NCBI GenBank assembly: GCA_963780135.1
Contig: CAWAAR010000003.1
Span: 3,709,701-3,733,700, forward strand
Direction of reading: 5' to 3'
Length of the DNA: 24,000 bases
DNA from: an uncultured Clostridiaceae bacterium
Lineage (GTDB): Bacteria > Bacillota > Clostridia > Clostridiales > Clostridiaceae
Both the position numbers and the translations under genes were made by a program. The stretch's first letter is position 1, and the number at the start of each line of letters is the position of its first letter. Below the pieces are notes generated by a model, which worked only from the letters and a program-made list of their open reading frames with translations, was not told the DNA's origin and did no database searches. This document shows, one piece after another, positions 1,771-19,741 of the stretch.

Positions 1771-2817
1771 TTATTTATGAGAGTTTGCTAAACCATTCAG
1801 CTCTTCTGTCAGTTCTGTAACTTCCTGTAAATTTGCAGTAACTTCTTGAATTGCAGCCGATTGCTGCTCTGTGGTTTCTAGTGTGGACTTAGACGATTCC
1901 ATAGTTTTATCCACCGATTCATGTATCTTACCTGTAAGTTCTGATATTTTTAAAGCTGTTTGCTTAGAGTTTTGAGATAACTTACCTATTTCTTTTGCAA
2001 CAACACCAAAACCCCTTCCTGCTTCTCCTGCTCTAGCTGCTTCTATGGATGCATTTAATCCAAGCATTTTAGTTTGGTCCGCTATGCTTTTTATTGAATC
2101 AAGTATTGAGTTAATTTCCGTAGATATATCTTTTACATTAACTATCTCTTGACTTAAAATATGTTGATTATTTGTAACATTAACTGATGATGCTGATAGT
2201 TCTTCCATAGTTGCTGAAATTTGATTAAAATTATCAGAAAGCACTCGAGACATGCTTTTTATTTTTAATTCTTCATATCCTGTTTTCGACAATGCATTGG
2301 CTATAATATACAGTACCTCTGCAGCTGCTTTCACGCTTTTTTCAGTAGTAACTTTTACTTTATTTACTACTTCCACATATCCATCTTCATTAACACCTAT
2401 TTCTTTTGCCGCTTCTCTATATTTTGATTCATTAGGTTTAGAAGTCAATAATTGTCCTCCTAAAATTGTTCCAATTTGCTTACCTTCTATTAATATAGGT
2501 GCAGCAAAATCAATTAGTCCTGCATGACAAGTGTAAACACATGGTCTTCCTGTTTTTGCAGCTTCTTCTCCGCCTTTTCTGTGAGATTCAGCACATCTAT
2601 CATAACCTACTTTAGTAGACTGTGTGAACTTCATACAAAAATCTGTATATGAACTAGGTTTAGTTACTGGATTTCCATTAACATCTACTGTTATACTAGC
2701 AATATCCATACTTTCTGAAAAATTGTCTTGAAATTTTTGAAGCAGTTCAATATCAATAACATCTTTTATTTCAAGTAAATTCAAATCAAAATCATTACCA
2801 TTAATTATTTTTAACAT
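1771..2817 (-). CDS. Soluble chemoreceptor: PocR sensory domain fused to a short MCP signalling hairpin
   Basis: PocR signature: [66 protein letters not shown] highly conserved tip: [30 protein letters not shown]. No TM segment and no HAMP. The ORF track starts at TTG 2832, but GGAGAAG lies 8 nt before ATG 2817 (MLKIINGND...), so 2817 is preferred. Confidence 0.85.
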
Positions 2818-2852
2818 AATAAACTTCTCCAATACAATAAAATTATTTAACC

Positions 2853-4550
2853 TTAGAGTTTAAATTTATTTAACTCTTTTGTTAATTGCTCTGCTGAACT
2901 AGTTAAACTTTGTGCAGTTTCAGATACAGAACCTGCAGAATTTTTCATCTCATGTGATGAAGCTGCAATTTCCTCTGCTGCTGCTGAATTTTCTTCTGAT
3001 ACAGCACTAGTATTCTCTATTTTCGATGCTACTGGCACCATATCACTATCCAATTTACTAATACCTACTGAAACCTTTTGTATATCAGGTATTATAATCT
3101 CTACAGCATCTATAATAGATTTAAATGAGTCTACAGCTGTATTTATTGTTGTTACTTCATTATTTAACTGTTTATTAACATCACCTGAGGTTTTTGCTAA
3201 ATTAGATGTCTCAGATGACACATTATTTAATAATCCACTAATTGTGTCAGAAGAATTTTTACTTTGATCTGCTAGCTTTCGGATTTCATCAGCTACCACA
3301 GAAAAGCCTCTTCCTGATTCTCCTGCCCTAGCAGCCTCAATTGCTGCATTAAGTGCAAGCAAATTTGTCTGTTCTGATATACTATTTATTAAGCTTGTTA
3401 TCTCATTAGCTTGATTTATGCTTATTTGAAGCTGTTTTATTCTATTTATTATTCCTTCAAAAGAATTGCTAATATTATTTAAGGATTCAACTAATCTTTC
3501 TAACTGCTTATTGCTTGTATTTGCCATACTGCCAATATTTCCTGTTACACTATTAGCTTCACCAATTAAAGTAGCAAACTCTTTTAGGGAAAAACCAAAT
3601 TCCTTTATAGAATCATTTACAAACATAAGTTCACCTGCCTGTTCAGTAGAACCATTAGCTACTTCTTCAATTGCTCCTGCAACCTCATCAGAGGTTGAAA
3701 ACATTTCTTCTGAAAGTGCATATAAACTCGATGCTCCTTGATCAATAGTGCAAGCAGTAGTTGTTATATTTCCTAATAAAGCTGCTATAGAATTTCTCAT
3801 ACTAAATAGCTGTTTATTCATATTGCCGAATTCTGTATTTGAAGAAGTATCTATTTCTGATGTAAAATCTCCTGAAGCTATTGTCTTTATAGTATTTGTC
3901 ATCTCATTTAAAAGCAATTTTAAATTAGAAACAAACAATACAGATATAAATAATAATAATAAAGTAGAAATAATTGCAACTATTATAAATGCTCTGTTAG
4001 AATAAATGGACTCTTTTTTATATTCTATGGTTTCAGCTGCTATAAGAGAGTTTTTATTTGCTATAGCACTTTTTATCCCTTCAGTAATGGAAGTCCCTTT
4101 CTTTGTAATTTGATCAGTCTGATTCTTAGTTATTTCAAGTCCTGATTTTTTTCTATTCTTCTCCTCATTATATATACTCATATAACTTGTATAATTATTT
4201 TCTATCTGTTTTACTTTTGCTGATTCATTATTATCTAATCCTATAGCTTTTATCTTTGTAAAACAGTCTTTCATTCTAGCATCTTCATTTTCAACATCCT
4301 TAATTTGTTCCTCTGAATAAGGTCTGTCAATAAATCTAGTCATGTATATCCTTAGTTCATTAAAATTTCCATTTATATCCCCATATCTCTCTATTACAGC
4401 AACATCACTAGAACTTAATTTAGTATAGTATTTATTAAGTTTTGAAGACGTTGTAAAACTAATAACTCCTATAAAGCTCAATGCTATAAATGATATAAGT
4501 ATCAAAGCCATAGTTCCCTGAATTAATTTTATTTTCTTTCTCAATTTCAT
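2853..4550 (-). CDS. Transmembrane methyl-accepting chemotaxis protein (two TM, ~150-aa extracytoplasmic helical sensor, HAMP, MCP signalling domain)
   Basis: TM1 is [21 protein letters not shown] and TM2 is [22 protein letters not shown]. The MCP tip is [33 protein letters not shown]. The ORF track starts at 4571, but GAAGGGGA lies 8 nt before the ATG at 4550 (MKLRKKIKL...), so 4550 is preferred. The stop is 35 nt upstream of the PocR-MCP start, so the two are probably co-transcribed. Confidence 0.9.
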
Positions 4551-4670
4551 TTGTTTATCCCCTTCATGCATTTTGTTTTGTAAATTTATATAGTTTAAAA
4601 TGATAGTATAAGACCAAAATTGTTTTCTACAAAATTATCCTTATTAATTCAAAAAAGCTGTTTAGTATGT

Positions 4671-4816: not shown

Positions 4817-5923
4817 CTAATTTGTTTTAGATATGCACTCACATTTAAAATTTGATGGTGATGTTCCTGTATATTTTTTAAATAATTTACCAAAATATTC
4901 AACATCTTTATATCCTAATTTATCAGCAATCTCATAATTTTTCATATTTCTATCCACCAATAACATTTTTGCTCTTTCCATTTTAACCATGGTTATATAC
5001 TCAACAAGAGATATTCCTGTATTTTTTTTGTATACTGTACTTAGATAGGAGCTATTTAAAAACATTTTATCTGCAATATTTCTAACAGAAATTTCAGTAT
5101 CAGTATTTTCAAGAACTACTTTGCATATTTGCCTGGTCATACTATTGACTGCGTTTCCAAAATCAAACTTTTTGACATTTATAATAAGCTCATTTATTAT
5201 TTGCAAAAAAGTTGTTCTGCTACCAGAAAAGTCAGAACACCTTGTAAAATCAATATCAATATACTTTGAAATATTTATAAACTTATGTAACCATGGATAT
5301 ATTCGCTCCATGTCTTCAATTAAATCTTCTACCATTTTATTTAAAACGTATGCCATTTTCATGGAATCATAATTAATAGCAGCAGCTGTAGTTTCAACTA
5401 AATTTGAAGCTACTTCAAGTACTCTTAAATCTGCATCCTTAAATAATCTGATTACTTTCTCGAGATCTTCTCTTTTATATAAAGTTTCTATTTTTTCTTC
5501 AAGCTGAACTTCCAAATTTTCGATTTTTTCCTTTTCCAGTCTTTTTGCAGTTATGTATTTTGAAGTCCTCTGCAGTAAATACTCCATTTTTTCCTCATCA
5601 ACAGGTTTTACAATATAATCAAAAGCTCCATATACAAGACCTTGCCTTGCATACTCAAACTCAGTATATTCACTTAAAAAAATAACACAAAGGCATAATT
5701 CTTTTTGGATAACCTTTTTCAAAAGATCTACACCATCCATAATTGGCATTTTTATGTCTGTGATTATAAGATCTACAGTTCTTTTTTCTAGCTTTTTAAG
5801 AGCTTCTTGTCCATTTTTAGCTTCATCTACAATAACAAATCCAGTTTGATCACCCCATACTTTTAATCTTTTTAGCTCTCTTCTCATAATTTCCATATCA
5901 TCTACAATCATAACCTGAAACAA
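4817..5923 (-). CDS. Response regulator with an AraC-type HTH output (YesN-like: REC, linker, HTH_AraC)
   Basis: The REC domain has MIVDDMEIMRR and the phospho-acceptor context DLIITDIKMPIMDG. The C-terminal AraC HTH has SVRNIADKMFLNSSYLSTVYKKNTGISLVEYITMVKMERAKMLL...YEIADKLGYKDVEYFGKLFKKYTGTSPSNF. TTG start at 5923 with GAGGTGAGG upstream. The internal ATG at 5911 is 16 nt from the RBS, which is too far. Confidence 0.9.
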   Translation of the reverse strand: MFQVMIVDDMEIMRRELKRLKVWGDQTGFVIVDEAKNGQEALKKLEKRTVDLIITDIKMPIMDGVDLLKKVIQKELCLCVIFLSEYTEFEYARQGLVYGAFDYIVKPVDEEKMEYLLQRTSKYITAKRLEKEKIENLEVQLEEKIETLYKREDLEKVIRLFKDADLRVLEVASNLVETTAAAINYDSMKMAYVLNKMVEDLIEDMERIYPWLHKFINISKYIDIDFTRCSDFSGSRTTFLQIINELIINVKKFDFGNAVNSMTRQICKVVLENTDTEISVRNIADKMFLNSSYLSTVYKKNTGISLVEYITMVKMERAKMLLVDRNMKNYEIADKLGYKDVEYFGKLFKKYTGTSPSNFKCECISKTN

Positions 5924-6094: not shown

Positions 6095-7222
6095 TTAGTC
6101 AGTAATATTAGGTAAAGTGAAATATACTGTTGCTCCTTCATTTAATTTACCCTCAATCCAAGTTTTTCCTCCATGCTTTTGAACTATTTTACGAACAGCA
6201 GCAAGTCCTATTCCACTCCCCTCAAATTCATCTGAGGAATGTAAACGCTCAAATATTCGAAATAATTTTCCTGAGAACTCCATATCAATACCCACACCAT
6301 TATCCTTTACATAGAAAACATACTCACTAACACCTCTTTTGCATCCAGCAATTATAAGTGCTTTTTCTCTATTTCCAGTAAATTTTATGGCATTGGAAAT
6401 TATATTATAAATTACTTGTTTTATCATAATTACATCTGCAAAAACAAGAGGCATTCCTGTTTCAAATTCAAATTCAATGGCTCTTTTTGAATAAATTGAT
6501 TTAAGTTCTTTAAAAGCCGAAGTGAACATTTCACTTATATTTACACTTTCTTTGCATATCTCTAGACGATTAGTTGTTGAATATTGTAGTAATTTTCCAA
6601 CCATAGTAATCATATCTCTACATATATCTTTTATATTAGAAACCATTTCACTAGCATCTTTATCTAGTAATGTCCTATAATCTTCAAGAATTATTTTGCT
6701 GTATCCTTGAATAGCCCTTAAGGGTGATTTTAAATCATGAGACACAGTATATGAAAAAGATTCAAGTTCATTAACAGCAGCTTCAAGCTCTAATTTTTTT
6801 TCTTCAAGAATTTCATTGCGCTGTGCTAACTCATACTGAGCAAGCTTCAACGACAAATGAGTATGTACCCTAGCTTTAACTTCAAGAATTTCAAAAGGTT
6901 TAGTTATATAGTCAACAGCACCTAATTCAAAACATTTTGTTTTACTGATTATATCTGTCATGGCAGTTAAAAAAATTATAGGTATGTCTTTTGCTAATTT
7001 ATTTTCTTTGATTCTCTTACATACTTCATATCCATCCATAATAGGCATCATAATATCTAATAAAATTATATCTGGAATCTCTATTTCTAAACTTTCTAAT
7101 GCAGATTTTCCATCCGTTGCAACTGAAATTTCATAATCATCACCAAAAGCTTCTACAAGAATATCAATATTTTCTTCTGTATCATCAACAATCAGCACTG
7201 TACACTCTGAAAGTTCTTTCAT
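6095..7222 (-). CDS. REC-histidine kinase (N-terminal receiver, coiled coil, HisKA, HATPase_c)
   Basis: REC: [39 protein letters not shown]. HisKA H-box: [20 protein letters not shown]. HATPase: [33 protein letters not shown]. The ATG at 7222 overlaps the upstream stop (TAATG), indicating translational coupling. Confidence 0.9.
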   Translation of the reverse strand: [375 protein letters not shown]

Positions 7223-9519
7223 TATATTTCCTCCCCTTTAAGATTATTCATTAATACTTCAAGTATATCAAGTGCTTCCTTAAATTTATATTTCAAAACA
7301 AACCTCTCAATTTCTGCAGCATTTTTTTGGATTTCTACCGGCCATACTAATTTTCTATATTCTTTCATAACTTCAGCACATTTTTTAGGTTTTCGAGTTT
7401 TCAAATAAGGTTTAAGCTCATTCATAATTTTTAATATTTCATTTTTGGATGAAACATTACCAGTTACCATAGCCACCTGCTCATCTTCTGGAAGTACACT
7501 TTCAAGAGCTTTTATCATTTTACTAAGCATAACACTTGTCTCTCTCAACATGGTGTTAAGTATATCAGAAGAAATCCTTTTTTTAATGGCCTCTTCTAAA
7601 CTAGCTGCCTTTTCCTGAATAACCACAGCACCAATAGTTCCAGATACCCCCTTTAAAGTGTGCGCAATACGTTCTGCAGTAAGAAAGTCCCCCTCTGAAA
7701 TCACTTTTTCAATTTGCATAATTGCATCCTTTTGTCCTAACACATATTTTTTCAATAAATTTATATATGATTTTTTCTTTCCAAGTACCCTTCTTAACCC
7801 AAGTGATGTATCAAGTCCAGGAATGCCTACTACAAAGTCATCTGAACATGTATTTACTGAAGCTTTAAATTTTACTTTTTCAGTACTTACTTTTCTAAAT
7901 GGAATCCATTTTAAAAGTATTGAAAACAACTGATTAGGATCTATAGGTTTAGATATATAATCATTCATACCTGCTTGTATACACTTATTCTGATCATTGG
8001 TCATTACATTAGCAGTCATTGCAATAATAGGTAATGCTAATCTCTTTATATTTCTTCTAATTTCTTTTGTTGCTGTTACACCATCCATTACTGGCATCTG
8101 CATGTCCATAAGTACAATATCGTATTTATTCTCCCTAACTTTATCCACTGCAATTTTTCCATTTTTAGCAAAATCTATTGAAAACTCGCCTTCTTGTAAT
8201 AGGTCAACTGCAACCTGCACATTTAGTTCATTATCTTCCACTAATAATATCCGGGCTCCACTGATTACTGTAAGAGATTCATTGTTTTTTAAAGGTTCAT
8301 CCATCTTTTGTGTTGCTTTACCAATACCAAGTTTTGCAGTAAACCAAAAAGTACTTCCTATTCCAAGTTCAGTTTCAACTCCAACCTGGCCTTCCATTAG
8401 AGTTGCCAATTCTTTAGAAATAGCAAGCCCCAGACCTGTACCTCCATACTTTCTAGTTATAGAAGTATCGGCCTGTTGAAAGGATTGAAAAAGTTCACCT
8501 TTTTGTTCTTCAGTCATACCAAGTCCTGTATCCTGAACCTCAAACTTTATTACACACTGATCAAGTAATTCTTCTTCTTTGCGAATTCTTACAACTATTT
8601 GTCCTTTTTCAGTGAATTTAACTGCATTGCTTACATAATTAATAAGAATTTGTCCTACTCTTAAGGGATCACCGCATAAATTCTTTGGTAATTCAGTATC
8701 TAAATCAAAGATTAGTTGAAGACCCTTTGAAGCACATTTGTCACCAATAAGATTTTCTAGATTATCTAGTACCTCAGCCAGTTTAAAACTGGTTTTCTCA
8801 ATTTTAAGCTTTCCTGCTTCGATTTTAGAAAAGTCCAATATATCATTTATTACACCTAACAAATGCTGATTGGATTGGGATATCTTGTTAATATAATCCC
8901 TTTGTTTGGTATTTAGATCTGTTTTTTCAATTAAATAAGTCATTCCCATAATAGCATTTATTGGAGTTCGAATTTCATGACTCATATTTGCTAAAAAATC
9001 CGACTTCGTTTTAGCAGCCTCCTCAGCACGTTCCTTAGCATCCCTTAATTCTTCTGCTTGTACTAGCAATTTATCATTCTTTTTTTTAAGCTCAACCATA
9101 AGTTCTTGTCTTGATGGTATGGATAGTACTTTTTTTAACTCTTCTATTTCTTCTTTACTAATAGAAAATTTCATATCTTTTATGTAAGAAAATGCTTCTA
9201 TAATTAATGAATTATCCTCTAATTTCCTTATAAAGTAATTATCAAAAATTTCATTACCAAATTCAAGATTCTCTTTAGTTACTATTTTCGATAATTTAAA
9301 TAATAAAGCTTTTTTTTCATATATATCTGTTATAAAAATTGAAATCAGTATATCTTTATTATTGCAATAACATCTACGACATATTTCCGATATAGCAACT
9401 TCAATTCTTGTGGTTTTTATATCAGTATACCCAAAGCTTGTAACTAGTCCTCGTATTTTCTTTCTAGCTTCAATTATAGAATCGATGTTCATTATTTTGA
9501 GAATGCCTAATTCAATCAT
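7222..9519 (-). CDS. Soluble hybrid sensor histidine kinase: unassigned ~135-aa N-terminal domain, coiled coil, HisKA, HATPase_c, REC, Hpt
   Basis: H-box FLANMSHEIRTPINAI (His181). HATPase: VSNAVKFT, QDTGLGM, GGTGLGLAISKELATLMEG. REC: ILLVEDNELN, DIVLMDMQMPVMDG, AMTANV, ISKPI. Hpt: AHTLKGVSGTIGA. No hydrophobic TM stretch is visible. AAGAGGT lies 8 nt before ATG 9519, and the start is 22 nt after the rsbX-like stop. Confidence 0.9.
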   Translation of the reverse strand: MIELGILKIMNIDSIIEARKKIRGLVTSFGYTDIKTTRIEVAISEICRRCYCNNKDILISIFITDIYEKKALLFKLSKIVTKENLEFGNEIFDNYFIRKLEDNSLIIEAFSYIKDMKFSISKEEIEELKKVLSIPSRQELMVELKKKNDKLLVQAEELRDAKERAEEAAKTKSDFLANMSHEIRTPINAIMGMTYLIEKTDLNTKQRDYINKISQSNQHLLGVINDILDFSKIEAGKLKIEKTSFKLAEVLDNLENLIGDKCASKGLQLIFDLDTELPKNLCGDPLRVGQILINYVSNAVKFTEKGQIVVRIRKEEELLDQCVIKFEVQDTGLGMTEEQKGELFQSFQQADTSITRKYGGTGLGLAISKELATLMEGQVGVETELGIGSTFWFTAKLGIGKATQKMDEPLKNNESLTVISGARILLVEDNELNVQVAVDLLQEGEFSIDFAKNGKIAVDKVRENKYDIVLMDMQMPVMDGVTATKEIRRNIKRLALPIIAMTANVMTNDQNKCIQAGMNDYISKPIDPNQLFSILLKWIPFRKVSTEKVKFKASVNTCSDDFVVGIPGLDTSLGLRRVLGKKKSYINLLKKYVLGQKDAIMQIEKVISEGDFLTAERIAHTLKGVSGTIGAVVIQEKAASLEEAIKKRISSDILNTMLRETSVMLSKMIKALESVLPEDEQVAMVTGNVSSKNEILKIMNELKPYLKTRKPKKCAEVMKEYRKLVWPVEIQKNAAEIERFVLKYKFKEALDILEVLMNNLKGEEI

Positions 9520-9541: not shown

Positions 9542-10141
9542 TCATATTAAATATTTTAGCACAATGCAAGATTCATCATCATTTTTTTTACTAAATTTTT
9601 CTAATATTCCTTGTGCAATATTTTCAGCATTTTCTTTTAGTAATCCTCTACATTCAAAGGATTCAAAATGTTCTTTAATACCATCTGAATGCAAAAGTAA
9701 AATTTCTCCTCCATGAAGTTTTAAACTGTGTTTGTGAGGATTGGTTATTCTATAGCCAATGACACCACCTTTTGATACAAACCTAATAGGCTTTGGCCAC
9801 ATAATTCTAACAGTAATATTTCCTATTCCAACATAACTGAGTTCACCAGTTACCATATCTAAATTACATATTGCTGCAACAGCTCCTCTGGTTCCCTTTA
9901 AATGTTCATGCAGACCATTCATAATGTCCACTATGTCCTTACAATAATTATTCTCCAAGTATGTTTTTGCATATAGTGCTACTTTTCTTGCTTCTGATCC
10001 ATGTCCAAGTATATCAACTAAAGCCAAAAAACAATTATTTCCATACTTTTTAATAATACCTATATCACCACACTCTGATTCGTCTCCAAGTAATGCTTTG
10101 TAAACCATGCCTAACTCAATATCTGACATTATCTCTTCCAT
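9542..10141 (-). CDS. rsbX: RsbX-like PP2C/SpoIIE-family serine phosphatase
   Basis: About 195-199 aa, a single PP2C-like domain (GDIGIIKKYGNNCFLALVDILGHGSEA, GAVAAICNLD, LLLHSDGIKE). It sits fourth in an R-S-T-X gene order. The start is ambiguous: ATG 10141 overlaps rsbT by 13 nt, while ATG 10129 forms a TAATG overlap with the rsbT stop. Confidence 0.75.
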   Translation of the reverse strand: MEEIMSDIELGMVYKALLGDESECGDIGIIKKYGNNCFLALVDILGHGSEARKVALYAKTYLENNYCKDIVDIMNGLHEHLKGTRGAVAAICNLDMVTGELSYVGIGNITVRIMWPKPIRFVSKGGVIGYRITNPHKHSLKLHGGEILLLHSDGIKEHFESFECRGLLKENAENIAQGILEKFSKKNDDESCIVLKYLI

Positions 10142-10590
10142 TTACGTGCAAGCACACGCGTTCCCTTTCCTAATATAGCTTCAATATAAAATTCGTCCAT
10201 TATCCTTTTCACACTTGGCAGTCCTAAGCCTAGGCTATGAGGTAAAGAACTGTACTGTTCTTGCATGGCAAGCTCAATATCCATTATTCCAGGACCATTA
10301 TCCTTAGCAAATATTTCAATACCTACACGGCCATCATTTATATTTCTTATAAAACTAATAGTTATTTCACCTTTTTTTGCATATCGAATTATATTTGTTG
10401 ATAATTCAGATGCTGCAGTAGCAATCATAACCTCATCCGTACGCATAAAACCAGCTTTTACAGCCATCTGCCTTGTAACAAATATGATATGCCCATTATT
10501 ATGATCTTCTGCAAGCTTAACAAGAACCATATCCAATAAGCTCACAGTTTTGCCTGCAAAAATAGTAAAGCCATCTTCTATTTCATCCAT
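10129..10590 (-). CDS. rsbT: RsbT-like GHKL serine/threonine protein kinase (anti-sigma-regulatory-factor type)
   Basis: 153 aa. N-box-like ATAASELSTNIIRYA, G1 DNGPGI, G2 GLGLPSVKRIMDEF. It has no HisKA or dimerisation His domain. AGAGGTG lies 7 nt before ATG 10590. It immediately follows two STAS genes. Confidence 0.8.
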   Translation of the reverse strand: MDEIEDGFTIFAGKTVSLLDMVLVKLAEDHNNGHIIFVTRQMAVKAGFMRTDEVMIATAASELSTNIIRYAKKGEITISFIRNINDGRVGIEIFAKDNGPGIMDIELAMQEQYSSLPHSLGLGLPSVKRIMDEFYIEAILGKGTRVLARKWKR

Positions 10591-10616
10591 TAATAAGCAC
10601 CTCTGATTTTATTAAA

Positions 10617-10985
10617 TTAAGTCTTTGATACTAGTTTAAATCCCTGTTCTAAGTTAATAGCAGCTTTTATACCACTAACATCTACATTTAAATCTAATAG
10701 TGCTGACACAACTCCGGGTTTAAGACCAATCCATACAACATTAACTCCCATAAGTGAAATTGCTTTTGAAGCTTTTTGTAAAAACTTAAATGTATAAGAA
10801 TCCATTCCTTTTAACATACTTAAATCAAGTATAGCACTAACTATTGAAACGTTATTAGCTTTTGTTATTATTCTGCTAATACCTAGTTCTATCTCTTTAT
10901 CAGTAATTTCACTTGGCAGTGTTACAATAAGACACCCTTCTACTACTGTCACTGATGTTTTAAAATCATAATCAAACTCTATCAT
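10617..10985 (-). CDS. rsbS: RsbS-like single-domain STAS protein
   Basis: 122 aa, STAS only. The conserved phosphorylatable serine context is ILDLSMLKGMDSYTFKFL (Ser63), comparable to the RsbS Ser in the D-S-F/Y motif. AAGGAAG RBS overlaps the rsbR stop. Confidence 0.8.
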   Translation of the reverse strand: MIEFDYDFKTSVTVVEGCLIVTLPSEITDKEIELGISRIITKANNVSIVSAILDLSMLKGMDSYTFKFLQKASKAISLMGVNVVWIGLKPGVVSALLDLNVDVSGIKAAINLEQGFKLVSKT

Positions 10986-10995
10986 AGCATCTTCC

Positions 10996-11808
10996 TTATA
11001 ATTCTTTTTTATGTTTCACTTCTAAATTAAGTATTGAAAAAGCTTCAGCCAAGGCATCGCTTAAAGTAGCCTTTGTTTTTATGCTTTCCATGTCAATTCC
11101 TAGTTCAATAATAGTTTGTGCCACTGCTGGAGATATCCCAGAAATTATACATTCACAGCCCATAAGTTTTGTAGCCTTCGTTATTTTAATAAGATGATTT
11201 GCTACAGCAGTATCTACAGCAGCAACCCCATGAATATCCATTATTATAACTTTAGAATATGTTTCCATTATTTTGTTTAGCATACTTTCCATCATATGCT
11301 GTGCTCTCATAGAATCAACCACACCTACAACCGGAAGAACCAGAACTCCTTCCCATAATTCTATAGTCGGTGTTGACATCTCACGTATGGTTTGGCTTTG
11401 TTCCCTTACTCTTTCTTCATATTGAACTCTTTCCATTATATCAATGATAAACTCAAGACCTCCAATTATATTATCATTTTCATCTTTTAAAGGAACAGAA
11501 AAATATTCCATAGGCATTTTCAAGTTATTAATTGTTACTTCATTTCGTGCAGAACACATTTTTCCACTTTCAATAGCTTTAATCATACAACACTGCTCCG
11601 TATTACAATGCAATGAATTAAAAAGGTCACAACACCTTTTGCCTAAAATGTCCTCCTTGCTTTTCTTTACAGTTTTTTGTCCCGCCTTATTTATATAAGT
11701 TACTCTTAATTCTTTATCCACTGCCATTACTGTAGTTGGTATTTGATCAAGAATCTGCATTTTTATCGTACTATTTGCTTCCTCAAAATTTTCAGTGATA
11801 TTATCCAT
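10996..11808 (-). CDS. rsbR: RsbR-like stressosome sensor: Cys-rich PAS domain plus C-terminal STAS
   Basis: 270 aa. The linker/STAS block TPTIELWEGVLVLPVVGVVDSMRAQ...IIMDIHGVAAVDTAVANHL...ISGISPAVAQTIIELG is typical of RsbR paralogues. Thr200 (in VDT) and Thr232 (in AQT) sit in the motif contexts of the two RsbT-target threonines of B. subtilis RsbRA. The N-terminal PAS (LDQIPTTVMAVDKELRVTYINKAG...) carries CC-x6-HC-x4-CC-x10-C. AGGAGGAAAAG precedes ATG 11808. Confidence 0.8.
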   Translation of the reverse strand: MDNITENFEEANSTIKMQILDQIPTTVMAVDKELRVTYINKAGQKTVKKSKEDILGKRCCDLFNSLHCNTEQCCMIKAIESGKMCSARNEVTINNLKMPMEYFSVPLKDENDNIIGGLEFIIDIMERVQYEERVREQSQTIREMSTPTIELWEGVLVLPVVGVVDSMRAQHMMESMLNKIMETYSKVIIMDIHGVAAVDTAVANHLIKITKATKLMGCECIISGISPAVAQTIIELGIDMESIKTKATLSDALAEAFSILNLEVKHKKEL

Positions 11809-11875
11809 CTTTTCCTCCTAATAATTTTTTATTTACTCATAACTAACCACTCTAATACTCCTATCTTATTAAGTT

Positions 11876-11904
11876 AATATAACATATCATACTCTCAATC
11901 TCAA
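11876..11904 (-). promoter_or_regulatory. Candidate sigma-A-type promoter for the rsbR operon
   Basis: On the minus strand: TTGAGA (11904-11899), a 17-nt spacer ending in TGT, then TATATT (11881-11876, extended -10 type). It lies about 70 nt upstream of ATG 11808. Pattern match only. Confidence 0.3.
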
Positions 11905-12062
11905 TTTATTTTTCAACTATCTAGTTTCCATATAATACAACTTATAACAAAGGTGTTTTTTTGTTTTTATTTTAGTTTACTTTAAATTTTAATTTACATA
12001 ATATTATATTTGTTAACTGCACTTAATAAAGCTTTTAATACTAAAAAATATTACATTAAATT

Positions 12063-12115
12063 GAGAAAAACTCACCTTCATTGTCCTCTGTCAATTGATC
12101 TCTCAAAAAAAGTTG
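12063..12115 (+). repeat. Solo copy of the terminal repeat of the MITE-like element at 19458-19741
   Basis: gagaaaaactcaccttcattgtcctctgtcaattgatctctcaaaaaaagttgtg aligns with the right arm gaagaaaacttaccttcactgtcctctgtcctatgtcaattgtcctctaaaaaatgcttcg. Most positions match, with a 7-nt gap. No convincing opposite arm is seen nearby. Confidence 0.5.
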
Positions 12116-12124
12116 TGTCACATC

Positions 12125-12153
12125 TTGCTTAAACTGCGAAAATTAAGTAATAT
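12125..12153 (+). promoter_or_regulatory. Candidate sigma-A-type promoter for the REC-HD-GYP gene
   Basis: TTGCTT (12125-12130), a 17-nt spacer, then TAATAT (12148-12153). It lies about 65 nt upstream of ATG 12219. Pattern match only. Confidence 0.35.
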
Positions 12154-12170
12154 AAGTTTAAGTAAACACA

Positions 12171-12198
12171 AAGTTTGTTAAAATCTAGCAACAAACTT
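12171..12198 (+). promoter_or_regulatory. Perfect 9-bp inverted repeat (AAGTTTGTT-N10-AACAAACTT) abutting the RBS of the HD-GYP gene: operator or 5'-UTR hairpin
   Basis: aagtttgtt (12171-12179) and aacaaactt (12190-12198) are exact reverse complements. AGGGAGG (12201-12207) follows 2 nt later. Confidence 0.35.
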
Positions 12199-12218
12199 AA
12201 AGGGAGGTGCAAAATAAC

Positions 12219-13337
12219 ATGAAAAAACTTTCTGAATGTATGGTGCTTATTGTTGATGATACGGAAGCTAATGTGGATATCCTTGTAGAAGCCTTTGGTG
12301 ACGATTATGAAATATCCGTTGCTATGGATGGAGAATCTGCTCTTGAAAATATAGGAATGGAATTGCCTGACATAATTTTATTGGATATTATGATGCCTGA
12401 TATGGATGGGTATGAACTATGCCGCCGTATCAAAGAAAATAAAGCTACTGCAGAAATTCCTATTATATTTTTAACAGCCATGACAGATATAGTAAGCAAA
12501 ACAAAAGGCTTTGAACTTGGTGCAGTGGATTATATAATTAAACCTTTTGAAATTCTTGAGGTAAAAGCTAGGGTACATACCCACCTGTCCTTGAGACTTG
12601 CACAATATGAGTTATCAAAGCAAAATGAACTTCTTGAGATAAAAGTAATAGAAAGAACAAAGGAGCTTAATCTTACCCAAGAAGCAACTATTGAAGCAAT
12701 GGCTTGTCTAGCAGAATATCGTGATCCTGAAACTGGAGGTCATATAAAACGCACAAAAAATTATATAAAAATATTGGCAGAGGAACTAAAAAAAACTTCA
12801 AAGTTCAAGGATATTTTGCTTAACGAAACCATAGAACTTTTGTACAAATCCGCACCTCTCCATGATATCGGCAAAATAGGTATAAGAGATGATATTTTGC
12901 TTAAAAATGACAAATTAACCCCTGAAGAATTTGAAGAAATGAAAAAACATACACTTTTAGGATATTACTCACTGTTAAAAGCTTCTTCAAAACTTGGTAA
13001 TAATTCTTTTTTAAAATGTGCAATGGAACTTACGCGCTCTCATCAAGAAAAATGGGATGGAACAGGTTATCCAGATGGTCTAAGGGGAGAAGATATTCCT
13101 TTACCTGGAAGACTTATGGCAGTGTCAGATGTTTATGATGCACTTATCAGTAAACGAGTCTACAAACCTGCTTTTTCTCATAAAAAAGCTGTTCAAATAA
13201 TTCTTGAAGGTAGGGGCCATCACTTTGATCCTGAGATTGTTGATGCATTCATGAATATTCATGAAGAATTCCGAAAAATTGCATATAAATATGCTGATTG
13301 TGAGGAAGAACGTACTGCCCTGAATAATTCAATTTAG
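12219..13337 (+). CDS. Response regulator with an HD-GYP c-di-GMP phosphodiesterase output (RpfG-like, REC + HD-GYP)
   Basis: REC: VLIVDDTEANVDIL, IILLDIMMPDMDG, FLTAMTD, IIKPF. HD-GYP: GGHIKRTKNY, APLHDIGKIGI, HTLLGY, SHQEKWDGTGYPDGL, RLMAVSDVYDALISKRVYK. The ORF track begins at GTG 12207, which lies inside the RBS AGGGAGG. ATG 12219 sits 11 nt after that RBS and is preferred. Confidence 0.9.
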   Translation: MKKLSECMVLIVDDTEANVDILVEAFGDDYEISVAMDGESALENIGMELPDIILLDIMMPDMDGYELCRRIKENKATAEIPIIFLTAMTDIVSKTKGFELGAVDYIIKPFEILEVKARVHTHLSLRLAQYELSKQNELLEIKVIERTKELNLTQEATIEAMACLAEYRDPETGGHIKRTKNYIKILAEELKKTSKFKDILLNETIELLYKSAPLHDIGKIGIRDDILLKNDKLTPEEFEEMKKHTLLGYYSLLKASSKLGNNSFLKCAMELTRSHQEKWDGTGYPDGLRGEDIPLPGRLMAVSDVYDALISKRVYKPAFSHKKAVQIILEGRGHHFDPEIVDAFMNIHEEFRKIAYKYADCEEERTALNNSI

Positions 13338-13358
13338 TTTTCAGCACCAAAAATTAAA

Positions 13359-13396
13359 CGGCTCTTGAAATCAAATTCAAGGCCGCTTGTTTTTTG
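13359..13396 (+). terminator. Rho-independent terminator between convergent genes, possibly bidirectional
   Basis: cggctcttgaa (13359-13369) pairs with ttcaaggccg (13376-13385) with one bulge, over a 6-nt loop, followed by cttgtttttt. The minus-strand reading is also followed by a T-rich tract. Confidence 0.6.
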
Positions 13397-13411
13397 TTAA
13401 CAATATAAATT

Positions 13412-19384: not shown

Positions 19385-19457
19385 TTAAAGCACTCCCTCA
19401 TATAAATTAATAATTCAAATTTGTTAATTTCAAAATTAATCACAAAATAAGCATAAT

Positions 19458-19741
19458 GCGAAGCATTTTTTTTGAGAGGACAGAGGACAGTGAAGGAGGA
19501 TTTTTCTCCGCTACACTACGAAAAATCTTTAATTTAAAAGAAACTCCTGCTCTTTTGTTTCTCAGGGCTACTCTCTGAGTAAGCGATTATATGAAAATCA
19601 TAGATTTTAGATGCCTTCTTAAGCTATGTTTTGCATTAGCAAAACAAGCCTAAAAAATAAATTAGTTTTCCGACGTAAGGAAGAAAACTTACCTTCACTG
19701 TCCTCTGTCCTATGTCAATTGTCCTCTAAAAAATGCTTCGC
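19458..19741. mobile_element. MITE-like non-coding element (~284 bp) bounded by long imperfect terminal inverted repeats
   Basis: The left end is gcgaagcattttttttgagaggacagaggacagtgaagg. The reverse complement of the right end is gcgaagcattttttagaggacaattgacataggacagaggacagtgaagg. The first 14 nt and the 15-nt agaggacagtgaagg block are identical, separated by one indel. Weaker complementarity continues to about 75 nt per arm. There is no credible ORF inside. A solo arm copy lies at 12063-12115. Confidence 0.6.

What the first reader, a model, noticed from the sequence alone, without database searches (positions are those of the whole stretch)
11809..13337. Divergently transcribed REC-HD-GYP phosphodiesterase as the likely second-messenger output of the stressosome locus
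Seen in the sequence. A 398-bp divergent intergenic region separates rsbR (minus strand) from a REC-HD-GYP gene (plus strand). The gene has intact HD (PLHDIGK) and GYP (WDGTGYPDG) motifs. Promoter-like hexamers face both directions. Together with the PAS-GGDEF cyclase (395-1450) and the EAL-type gene (1-292), there are three c-di-GMP turnover genes within 13.3 kb.

Established knowledge. HD-GYP domains with these motifs hydrolyse c-di-GMP, and RpfG-type proteins are activated through their REC domain.

Inference. A stress signal sensed by the RsbR PAS domain lowers c-di-GMP. This would be analogous in logic, but opposite in sign, to the Moorella stressosome-GGDEF arrangement.
Basis: partly seen in the sequence, partly recalled or inferred. 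Interest (0 to 1): 0.6.

Follow-up and report, generated by a model that had tools for sequence, protein, structure and literature searches.

The report
Stressosome relay's displaced HD-GYP regulator
This gene encodes a phosphorylation-controlled enzyme predicted to degrade the bacterial messenger c-di-GMP, and in other bacteria it is the last gene of the same stress-sensing (stressosome) operon, so it is a real but already anticipated output that has moved to the other side of the operon here.

Summary
The gene is real. It runs from ATG 12219 to 13337 and encodes a 372-aa REC-HD-GYP response regulator with its own terminator.

The link to the stressosome locus holds. In 29 of 41 assessable loci from several phyla, an orthologue (39-80% identical HD-GYP domain) directly follows rsbR-rsbS-rsbT-rsbX-hybrid kinase on the same strand. 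Three more loci carry it upstream. In this window the gene sits divergently upstream of rsbR. Its old slot holds a REC-kinase whose receiver is 77% identical to the HD-GYP protein's receiver, followed by a REC-AraC regulator. The relay is therefore probably branched.

This is the "Vibrio-type" stressosome with a two-component output (VvD1/VvD2), predicted since 2005 to degrade c-di-GMP. The kind is known.

Caveats:
- One of eight metal ligands is Gln (HQE, not HHE). Alanine at that position kills the enzyme PmGH. About half of the operon orthologues share Gln, but none of the genome's 16 other readable HD-GYP paralogues do.
- The nearest relative has a deleted remnant of the gene.
- The neighbouring GGDEF and EAL genes are not conserved partners.
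- The direction of the c-di-GMP change is untested.

Earlier notes of this scan on the same window reached compatible conclusions about the duplicated receiver and the kinase's N-terminal domain.

The parts
12219..13337 (+). REC-HD-GYP response regulator gene (372 aa, P0001). It is the orthologue of the terminal gene of rsbRSTX-hybrid HK operons.
   Evidence: ORF and translation. Pfam REC, HD_5 and HD. PDB matches to PA4781 at 1e-50 and PmGH at 2e-42. Orthologues in 32 related loci.
12243..12575 (+). Receiver (REC) domain, aa 9-119. It has D13, D14, phospho-acceptor D56, T86 and K108.
   Evidence: Pfam. Alignment to PleD REC. 77% identical to the REC of the REC-HK at 6095-7222.
12699..13238 (+). 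HD-GYP domain, aa 161-340. It carries the E/D-T-G type (DPETGGH), HD (PLHDIGK), HQE-x2-DGTGYP and RVYK motifs.
   Evidence: Motif meanings are from PMC4159591 and bioRxiv 10.1101/2021.11.05.467447.
13044..13046 (+). Codon CAA for Q276, at the position of metal ligand H277 of PmGH (HHE reads HQE).
   Evidence: Alignments. It is the only HQE among 17 readable HD-GYP paralogues of the genome. 18 HQE against 17 HHE among the 35 aligned operon-type sequences, window included.
13348..13397 (+). Intrinsic terminator-like hairpin plus U-run directly after the stop codon. It makes the gene monocistronic.
   Evidence: RNA fold -18.1 kcal/mol, z -4.17, 0 of 200 shuffles as stable.
11809..12218 (.). 410-bp divergent spacer between rsbR and the HD-GYP gene. 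It contains the RBS GGGAGG at 12202-12207, a 9-bp perfect inverted repeat at 12171-12198, and a repeat-element-like stretch at about 12063-12131.
   Evidence: Sequence. No Rfam family. Promoter scan not above chance. Similarity to 19448-19508 and 19684-19733. Hairpin not significant. In L075 most of this spacer (window 11924-12355) is missing.
7222..9519 (-). Soluble hybrid histidine kinase: RsbW/RsbT-like pseudo-kinase N-domain, HisKA, HATPase, REC and Hpt. It is the predicted phosphodonor for the HD-GYP regulator.
   Evidence: Pfam. H-box, receiver Asp and HxxKG of Hpt read. N-domain model pLDDT 87, with the top 19 Foldseek hits all RsbW/SpoIIAB/UsfX. It lies directly upstream of REC-HD-GYP orthologues.
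6095..7222 (-). REC-HisKA-HATPase kinase occupying the operon slot that REC-HD-GYP holds elsewhere. Its REC is a paralogue of the HD-GYP protein's REC.
4817..5923 (-). REC-AraC transcription regulator, the likely partner of the REC-HK (second output branch).
   Evidence: Pfam. The REC-HK + REC-AraC pair is conserved in L003, L004, L075, L076 and L077.
9542..11808 (-). Stressosome module: rsbR (PAS-STAS, 10996-11808), rsbS (10617-10985), rsbT (10129-10590) and the PP2C rsbX-like gene (9542-10141).
   Evidence: Pfam. RsbT homologues named as such by sources. The same gene order occurs in most of the 74 loci.

Best explanation
The gene at 12219-13337 encodes the response-regulator output of a stressosome-fed phosphorelay.

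Proposed chain of events (all inferred):
1. A signal perceived by the PAS-STAS RsbR changes how the RsbR/RsbS complex holds the kinase RsbT.
2. RsbT acts on the soluble hybrid histidine kinase (7222-9519), probably through that kinase's N-terminal kinase-dead RsbT/RsbW-like domain.
3. Phosphate passes His -> Asp -> Hpt within the kinase, and then to D56 of the REC-HD-GYP protein.
4. The HD-GYP domain then hydrolyses c-di-GMP, as in RpfC/RpfG.
5. The same Hpt most likely also feeds the nearly identical receiver of the REC-kinase (6095-7222), which in turn controls the REC-AraC regulator. One stress input would therefore drive both a second-messenger branch and a transcriptional branch.

Shown here:
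- the domain content;
- orthology with the terminal gene of the conserved operon;
- constant adjacency of this subfamily to a hybrid HK-Hpt;
- the receiver paralogy;
- the relocation of the gene into its own monocistronic unit.

Inferred, not shown: every phosphotransfer step, the RsbT-kinase contact, the direction of the response, and catalytic activity.
For: Domains and catalytic motifs:
- REC plus HD-GYP domains are present.
- The REC catalytic residues are complete.
- The protein matches the solved c-di-GMP phosphodiesterases PA4781 (1e-50) and PmGH (2e-42).
- It has the E-T-G trinuclear-type motif and the RxYK c-di-GMP-specificity motif.

Conserved neighbourhood:
- 29 of 41 assessable RsbT loci have RsbR-S-T-X-hybrid HK-REC-HD-GYP on one strand, and 3 more have the orthologue upstream.
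- Clostridium sp. JS66 has the full set in one operon, with a 75% identical orthologue right after the hybrid HK.
- In a blind reverse sample of five P0001 homologues (64-69% identical), 4 sit directly after a hybrid HK with Hpt, and one of those is a full stressosome operon.

Receiver paralogy:
- The REC is 77% identical in protein, and similarly close in DNA (alignment), to the REC of the in-operon REC-HK.
- No other REC in the genome comes close.
- The two are sisters in a REC tree, with support 95/83.

Literature: the Vibrio vulnificus locus with the same logic is co-transcribed, and its mutants lose motility and fleQ expression (PMC9237108, PMC10014275).
Against: - Q276 replaces the ligand equivalent to PmGH H277, and H277A abolishes PmGH activity. 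Hydrolysis is therefore not assured.
- The gene is no longer in the operon, and no promoter could be identified above chance.
- The closest relative (L075, about 90% nt identity, same synteny) has lost the gene to two deletions.
- C. tagluense keeps only a frameshifted REC remnant, and two Clostridium MAGs (L003, L004) lack the gene. In this lineage the output looks dispensable.
- Heinz et al. could not show a VvRsbT-VvD1 interaction in Vibrio.
Confidence: 0.7

Rival explanations
1. The protein is wired to the relay as proposed, but it is not a hydrolase. With Gln at a metal-ligand position it acts as a phosphate sink competing with the REC-kinase for the Hpt, or as a c-di-GMP-binding or protein-binding regulator. 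Degenerate RpfG-family members such as HnoD work this way.
For: - HQE replaces HHE.
- H277A kills PmGH.
- Inactive RpfG-family proteins that act through protein contacts are documented.
- P0001 is the only HQE among 17 readable HD-GYP paralogues in this genome.
- It shares a receiver with a second branch, which is the topology a sink needs.
Against: - The other seven ligands, K219 (equivalent to PmGH K225), the GYP motif and RxYK are all intact. Known inactive members have several lesions.
- H and Q alternate among otherwise well-conserved orthologues across phyla. This suggests both forms work.
- A Gln side chain can still ligate a metal (general chemistry, not tested here).
Confidence: 0.17
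2. The gene is a decaying leftover. After the rearrangement that put REC-HK and REC-AraC behind the hybrid kinase, the HD-GYP gene lost its operon promoter. It is poorly expressed or silent and is on its way to loss, as has happened in close relatives.
For: - L075 has a deletion remnant at the same site.
- C. tagluense has a frameshifted REC remnant.
- L003 and L004 lack the gene.
- No promoter stands out above chance.
- A repeat-element-like fragment lies in the spacer.
Against: - The reading frame is complete at 372 aa, with no stops.
- All REC catalytic residues are present.
- The gene has a good RBS and a strong private terminator.
- Its REC has the shortest branch of its clade in the tree, 0.074.
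Confidence: 0.08
3. The adjacency is coincidental. The HD-GYP regulator is served by an unrelated kinase elsewhere in a genome rich in such genes.
For: - The genome has 20 HD_5 matches.
- Homologues of about 50% identity in two same-genus genomes exist without any RsbT.
- One 64% homologue is an orphan.
Against: - Orthology to the operon's terminal gene holds across phyla.
- The receiver twin lies inside the operon.
- 4 of 5 blind-sampled homologues follow a hybrid HK-Hpt.
Confidence: 0.05

Closest known systems
Vibrio vulnificus stressosome locus VvRsbR-S-T-X with downstream two-component module VvD1 (hybrid sensor kinase) and VvD2 (response regulator, predicted c-di-GMP phosphodiesterase). 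Sources: Pane-Farre 2005 as cited in PMC10014275, and Heinz 2022 (PMC9237108).
   Same: - RSTX module with the PP2C gene directly after rsbT.
- No RsbU and no sigma-B.
- The next gene is a hybrid kinase, and the output is a receiver-phosphohydrolase regulator thought to lower c-di-GMP.
- No RsbU_N domain on the kinase.
- Patchy distribution within the genus. Here RsbT was found in 0 of 11 same-genus genomes searched. In Vibrio it is in 4 of 38 species.
   Different: - RsbR here has a Cys-rich PAS domain, not a haem globin.
- The kinase has an RsbW/RsbT-like pseudo-kinase N-domain, whereas a PAS domain is reported for VvD1.
- The regulator gene is displaced to a divergent, monocistronic position.
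- An extra REC-HK -> REC-AraC branch is present.
- Direct sequence comparison with VvD1/VvD2 was not done here.
RpfC/RpfG of Xanthomonas campestris (hybrid kinase with Hpt feeding a REC-HD-GYP regulator), and the RpfG family COG3437.
   Same: Same phosphorelay topology (HisKA-HATPase-REC-Hpt to REC-HD-GYP) and the same domain order in the regulator.
   Different: The input here is a cytoplasmic stressosome rather than a membrane DSF sensor. The kinase is soluble. The regulator carries HQE instead of HHE.
Moorella thermoacetica stressosome with a GGDEF output
   Same: A stressosome coupled to c-di-GMP metabolism instead of a sigma factor.
   Different: In Moorella, RsbT is reported to act on a diguanylate cyclase directly. 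Here a full His-Asp-His-Asp relay intervenes and the enzyme is a predicted hydrolase.
PmGH (PDB 4MCW) and PA4781 (PDB 4R8Z), solved HD-GYP phosphodiesterases.
   Same: Clear homology over the whole HD-GYP domain, at E 2e-42 and 1e-50. The E-T-G motif of the trinuclear subgroup, HD, GYP and RxYK are all present.
   Different: The residue equivalent to PmGH ligand H277 is Gln. PA4781 lacks the Glu ligand that P0001 has.

Membership tests
RpfG-type REC-HD-GYP response regulators (homology class) | Receiver domain with the acidic pair, phospho-acceptor Asp, Thr/Ser and Lys | tested here: met
   D13, D14, D56, T86 and K108. Pfam Response_reg 94 bits against a cut-off of 30. Aligned to PleD REC.
RpfG-type REC-HD-GYP response regulators (homology class) | HD-GYP domain recognised by profile, with HD and GYP motifs | tested here: met
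   HD_5 98 bits against a cut-off of 27.2, and HD 61 bits against 22. PLHDIGK and DGTGYP are present. PDB matches at 1e-50 and 2e-42.
Catalytically competent HD-GYP c-di-GMP phosphodiesterase (PmGH type) | All eight metal ligands (PmGH E185, H189, H221, D222, H250, H276, H277, D305) | tested here: not met
   Seven of eight are present. The H277 equivalent is Q276. H277A abolishes PmGH activity. The protein is therefore not filed as a proven active enzyme. 18 of the 35 aligned operon-type sequences (window included) share Q.
Catalytically competent HD-GYP c-di-GMP phosphodiesterase (PmGH type) | RxxK / RxY[K/R] motif that gives c-di-GMP rather than cGAMP specificity | tested here: met
   RVYK at aa 313-316. 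The meaning of the motif is from the bioRxiv 2021 survey.
Catalytically competent HD-GYP c-di-GMP phosphodiesterase (PmGH type) | Measured hydrolysis of c-di-GMP to pGpG/GMP | not testable with these tools
   Needs an enzyme assay.
Stressosome (RsbRST) module with two-component output, Vibrio type | Contiguous rsbR (C-terminal STAS), rsbS, rsbT and a single-domain PP2C (rsbX) | tested here: met
   The genes span 9542-11808 on the minus strand, with Pfam STAS, STAS, HATPase_c_2 and SpoIIE. RsbT homologues are named RsbT by sources.
Stressosome (RsbRST) module with two-component output, Vibrio type | Hybrid histidine kinase encoded directly after rsbX | tested here: met
   Gene at 7222-9519 with HisKA, HATPase_c, REC and Hpt, starting 22 nt after rsbX.
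Stressosome (RsbRST) module with two-component output, Vibrio type | Response regulator with a phosphodiesterase domain encoded directly after the kinase, in the same operon | tested here: not met
   In the window that slot holds a REC-HK, and the REC-HD-GYP gene is divergent upstream of rsbR. The feature is met in 29 of 41 related loci and in Clostridium sp. JS66, whose gene is the orthologue. The window is therefore a rearranged derivative.
Stressosome (RsbRST) module with two-component output, Vibrio type | Sequence homology of the kinase and regulator to VvD1/VvD2 themselves | not tested
   No Vibrio sequence was retrieved. The comparison rests on published domain descriptions.
Stressosome (RsbRST) module with two-component output, Vibrio type | Globin-coupled (haem) RsbR sensor | tested here: not met
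   RsbR has PAS_4/PAS_9, not a globin. A Cys cluster lies in the PAS core.

The most novel reading that the evidence does not exclude
The His/Gln switch at one metal ligand (HHE/HQE) could be a functional toggle specific to the kinase-coupled REC-HD-GYP lineage. It recurs across phyla in stressosome-linked REC-HD-GYP regulators and is unique to this gene among the genome's 17 readable HD-GYP paralogues. It might change metal content, redox or O2 sensitivity, or turn the protein from a hydrolase into a phosphate sink or c-di-GMP sensor. In this rearranged Clostridium locus, the displaced HQE regulator would then tune how much phosphate reaches the duplicated receiver of the transcriptional branch, rather than simply degrading c-di-GMP.
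Probability: 0.15. Interest if true: 0.55.

Novelty: new member of a known kind. Interest (0 to 1): 0.35.

Why it matters
Stressosomes outside the Bacillus/Listeria sigma-B paradigm are poorly understood. The c-di-GMP-degrading output of the Vibrio-type locus is still a prediction. This Clostridium locus extends that architecture to anaerobic Firmicutes with a PAS-type sensor.

The survey done here shows four things:
- The hybrid kinase plus REC-HD-GYP pair is a portable output cassette. It is used by stressosomes and, in the sampled loci, is also found behind a V4R protein or as PAS- or CHASE-bearing kinases.
- The receiver has been copied onto other outputs (kinase, GGDEF, stand-alone REC).
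- The kinase has a dead RsbT-like domain that could explain how RsbT talks to it.
- The regulator carries a recurrent HQE variant worth an enzymological look.

The window offers a natural comparison set for testing what the HD-GYP branch contributes: JS66 intact in the operon, this genome relocated, and L075 and C. tagluense lost. None of this overturns current views.

Tried and rejected
- **Rfam.** A scan of the whole window, including the 410-bp spacer, found no riboswitch or other RNA family.
- **Promoter and terminator scan.** Promoter-like sites were not above shuffled expectation. The scan also missed the real terminator, which folding found.
- **5'-UTR hairpin.** The 9-bp palindrome at 12171-12198 is no more stable than shuffles, z 0.42.
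- **Fossil of the hybrid-kinase 3' end upstream of the HD-GYP start.** Only about 40 nt around the RBS and one 21-nt stretch match (E 0.003-0.04). This is too weak to claim.
- **RsbU_N domain on the kinase.** No Pfam hit even at E 10. Profile-profile comparison with RsbT is only suggestive, at 22% probability. The structure comparison settled the fold.
- **Synteny in close relatives.** It was uninformative, because none of the 40 relatives searched, 11 of them in the same genus, has an RsbT. The 50% identical HD-GYP homologues there are paralogues.
- **GGDEF and EAL neighbours as part of the system.** Rejected. They recur only in L075.
- **Reconstructing the exact rearrangement path from a JS66-like ancestor.** The identity matrix of receivers does not separate the two paralogue lines well enough.
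Full report
**1. The observation**

The window carries, on the minus strand:
- rsbR (PAS-STAS, 10996-11808)
- rsbS (10617-10985)
- rsbT (10129-10590)
- a single-domain PP2C (9542-10141)
- a soluble hybrid histidine kinase with HisKA, HATPase, REC and Hpt (7222-9519)
- a REC-HisKA-HATPase kinase (6095-7222)
- a REC-AraC regulator (4817-5923)
- two MCP genes
- a PAS-GGDEF gene (395-1450)
- the start of an EAL gene (2-292)

On the plus strand, divergent from rsbR, lies the gene in question. ORF listing gives GTG 12207. However, ATG 12219 has a GGGAGG 11 nt upstream, and all orthologues start MKKLSEC. The gene is therefore 12219-13337 (372 aa) and the spacer is 410 bp.

Pfam finds REC (aa 9-119) and HD_5/HD (aa 161-340) well above the cut-offs. 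The REC has D13, D14, D56, T86 and K108. A strong hairpin plus U-run follows the stop codon at 13348-13397 (-18.1 kcal/mol, z -4.2). The gene is therefore its own transcription unit.

No Rfam family lies in the spacer. Promoter-like hexamers are no more common than in shuffles.

**2.

The metal-binding HHE motif next to GYP reads HQE. In alignments with PA4781 (SHHERWDG) and PmGH (EHHERWDG), the window protein reads SHQEKWDG.

The second His is PmGH H277, one of eight metal ligands. H277A essentially abolishes activity (PMC4159591). The other seven ligands are present, as are the E-T-G signature of the trinuclear subgroup and the RxYK motif that favours c-di-GMP over cGAMP.

In this genome, 16 of 17 readable HD-GYP paralogues are HHE. 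Only this one is HQE.

**3. Is the gene linked to the stressosome?**

Local counts alone are weak. The genome has 20 HD_5, 31 GGDEF and 8 EAL matches. Close relatives do not help either. None of the 40 relatives searched, including 11 of the same genus, has an RsbT. The best HD-GYP matches there are 50% identical paralogues.

I therefore collected 74 loci around RsbT homologues from species-representative genomes and mapped the window's domains onto them. The dominant architecture is RsbR(PAS-STAS)-RsbS-RsbT-PP2C-hybrid HK(-REC-Hpt)-REC-HD-GYP on one strand.

Counts among the 41 loci where a hybrid kinase is present and the flank is readable:

| Arrangement | Loci |
|---|---|
| REC-HD-GYP directly after the kinase | 29 |
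| Orthologue upstream of rsbR (one, L059 from Victivallales, divergent as in the window) | 3 |
| No orthologue within the locus | 9 |

The orthologues' HD-GYP domains are 39-80% identical to the window protein and their receivers 40-89%. They come from Clostridia (Marinisporobacter, Vallitalea, Acetobacterium, Christensenellaceae, Oscillospiraceae), Treponema and Oceanispirochaeta, several Thermodesulfobacteriota, and Niveibacterium.

**4. Reverse test**

The loci above were chosen by RsbT, so I also searched with the HD-GYP protein itself. I looked up five homologues of 64-69% identity without regard to context.

| Protein | Context |
|---|---|
| P0199 | Full RsbRSTX-hybrid HK operon |
| P0156 | V4R protein, then PAS-hybrid HK-Hpt, directly upstream |
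| P0231 | PAS-hybrid HK-Hpt directly upstream |
| P0214 | CHASE-PAS-hybrid HK-Hpt directly upstream |
| P0225 | Orphan |

The constant partner of this regulator subfamily is thus a hybrid kinase with an Hpt domain. The stressosome is one of several input devices placed in front of that two-gene cassette. This makes the kinase at 7222-9519 the most likely phosphodonor.

**5. The receiver twin**

The first 151 residues of the HD-GYP protein are 77% identical, without gaps, to the first 151 of the REC-HK at 6095-7222. The DNA sequences are similarly close (alignment). The similarity ends exactly where the output domains begin. No other receiver in the genome comes near.

In a tree of receivers the two are sisters (95/83) inside the clade of operon REC-HD-GYP receivers. 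The kinase's internal REC and the AraC REC are far away. The same receiver lineage is also found on kinases, on a GGDEF protein and as stand-alone REC in Thermodesulfobacteriota loci. Shared receivers imply a shared phosphodonor, so the relay is probably branched.

**6. How the window's arrangement arose**

- **Clostridium sp. JS66.** It has REC-HK, REC-AraC, RsbRSTX, hybrid HK, REC-HD-GYP (75% identical, also HQE), MCP and PocR-MCP, all on one strand.
- **C. tagluense.** It has the same start of the locus, but only a frameshifted REC remnant after the MCP.
- **L075.** This metagenome contig is about 90% identical in DNA and fully syntenic with the window. It has RsbRSTX-hybrid HK-REC-HK-REC-AraC-MCP-PocR-MCP-GGDEF-EAL/HDOD as here. 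At the divergent position it has only a 66-aa remnant. The stretches corresponding to window 11924-12355 and 12459-13232 are missing.
- **Two Clostridium MAGs (L003, L004).** They lack the gene.

In the clostridial lineages that acquired the REC-HK/REC-AraC branch, the HD-GYP branch has therefore been lost repeatedly. The window holds an intact but displaced copy. The exact path of the rearrangement could not be reconstructed. A trace of the kinase's 3' end upstream of the HD-GYP start is too weak to claim.

**7. How RsbT may reach the kinase**

The kinase's first 159 residues have no Pfam match, and no RsbU_N hit even at E 10. They are conserved in the related operons. An AlphaFold model built on 18 orthologues (pLDDT 87) matches only RsbW, SpoIIAB and UsfX anti-sigma kinases in its top 19 PDB hits (E down to 3e-5). 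A profile comparison with RsbT is weakly positive.

Where RsbT has its conserved ELSTN segment, the domain's aligned helix reads SEICRR, and the stretch aligned to RsbT's Gly-rich DxGPGI region is absent.

A dead RsbT/RsbW-like domain is a plausible docking site for RsbT or for STAS proteins. Heinz et al. noted that most such kinases lack RsbU_N, and they could not show VvRsbT-VvD1 binding. I tested it independently.

**8. Comparison with what is known**

The V. vulnificus stressosome locus is RsbRSTX plus VvD1 (hybrid kinase) plus VvD2. [quoted passage not shown] It is co-transcribed with the stressosome genes, and mutants lose motility and fleQ expression (PMC10014275, PMC9237108). The domain legend of the survey figure in Heinz et al. 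lists REC, HPT and HDc.

The window is therefore a new member of this known kind, with four local variations:
- a Cys-rich PAS sensor instead of a globin;
- a pseudo-kinase input domain on the kinase;
- a displaced, monocistronic regulator gene;
- an added kinase-to-AraC branch.

RpfC/RpfG is the classical example of the downstream half.

**9. Verdict**

The gene is very likely an output of the stressosome-fed relay (about 0.7).
- Whether it hydrolyses c-di-GMP, and in which direction stress moves c-di-GMP, remains open.
- The GGDEF and EAL neighbours are not part of the conserved system.
- Interest is moderate to low, because the architecture has been predicted since 2005.
- The HQE variant and the natural series of intact, displaced and lost copies are the most useful leads.

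Noticed in passing
window 9043-9519 (-): The N-terminal 159 aa of the hybrid kinase fold like RsbW/SpoIIAB/UsfX anti-sigma kinases. Where RsbT has its conserved ELSTN segment the aligned helix reads SEICRR, and the stretch aligned to RsbT's Gly-rich DxGPGI region is absent. The domain is conserved in the related operons. It is a candidate docking domain for RsbT or STAS proteins.
   Followed up: yes
window 6806-7222 (-) and 12219-12671 (+): The receiver plus linker is duplicated (77% aa identity, similarly close DNA) on two different outputs, a kinase and HD-GYP. The same receiver lineage is also fused to GGDEF or occurs stand-alone in Thermodesulfobacteriota loci (L028, L032, L038, L042).
   Followed up: yes
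L075:7956-8156 (metagenome contig, about 90% nt identical to the window): The HD-GYP gene is reduced to a 66-aa remnant by two deletions, corresponding to window 11924-12355 and 12459-13232. The rest of the locus is syntenic.
   Followed up: yes
L076:15788-16155 (Clostridium tagluense): A frameshifted receiver fragment 75-81% identical to P0001 aa 1-123 lies after the MCP gene, with no HD-GYP domain. It is a second independent decay of this gene.
   Followed up: partly
window 11554-11634 (-), RsbR aa 59-85: A dense Cys/His cluster (C59, C60, H67, C68, C73, C74, C85) sits inside the PAS core of RsbR. It suggests a metal, Fe-S or redox cofactor. Conservation among orthologues was not examined.
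   Followed up: no
window 12063-12131 versus 19448-19508 and 19684-19733: Part of the rsbR/HD-GYP spacer resembles both arms of a repeat element elsewhere in the window (74-76% over 50-69 nt, E 1e-6 to 2e-5). This part of the spacer is absent from L075.
   Followed up: partly
window 12171-12198 (+): A perfect 9-bp inverted repeat (AAGTTTGTT, 10-nt spacer, AACAAACTT) lies a few nt before the RBS region. As an RNA hairpin it is no more stable than shuffles (z 0.42), so if it is functional it is more likely a protein-binding site.
   Followed up: partly
window 1771-4571 (-); L077:14781-17595; L075:15632-18411; L076:14054-15751: An MCP gene, and in most cases a PocR-MCP gene, follow the stressosome/two-component genes in all four clostridial versions of the locus, whatever gene precedes them. 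Chemoreceptors may be part of the conserved neighbourhood.
   Followed up: no
L078, L081, L082: The hybrid HK-Hpt plus REC-HD-GYP pair (start and stop overlapping or a few bases apart) recurs without a stressosome. It lies behind a V4R protein (L078), or the kinase itself carries PAS (L081) or CHASE-PAS (L082) sensor domains. It behaves as a portable output cassette.
   Followed up: partly
window 10996-11808 (-): RsbR gives a sub-threshold match to the YtvA (LOV-STAS) family model (98.8 bits against a cut-off of 250). It shares the PAS-STAS architecture, but no NCRFLQ-type LOV motif was seen in the translation.
   Followed up: no
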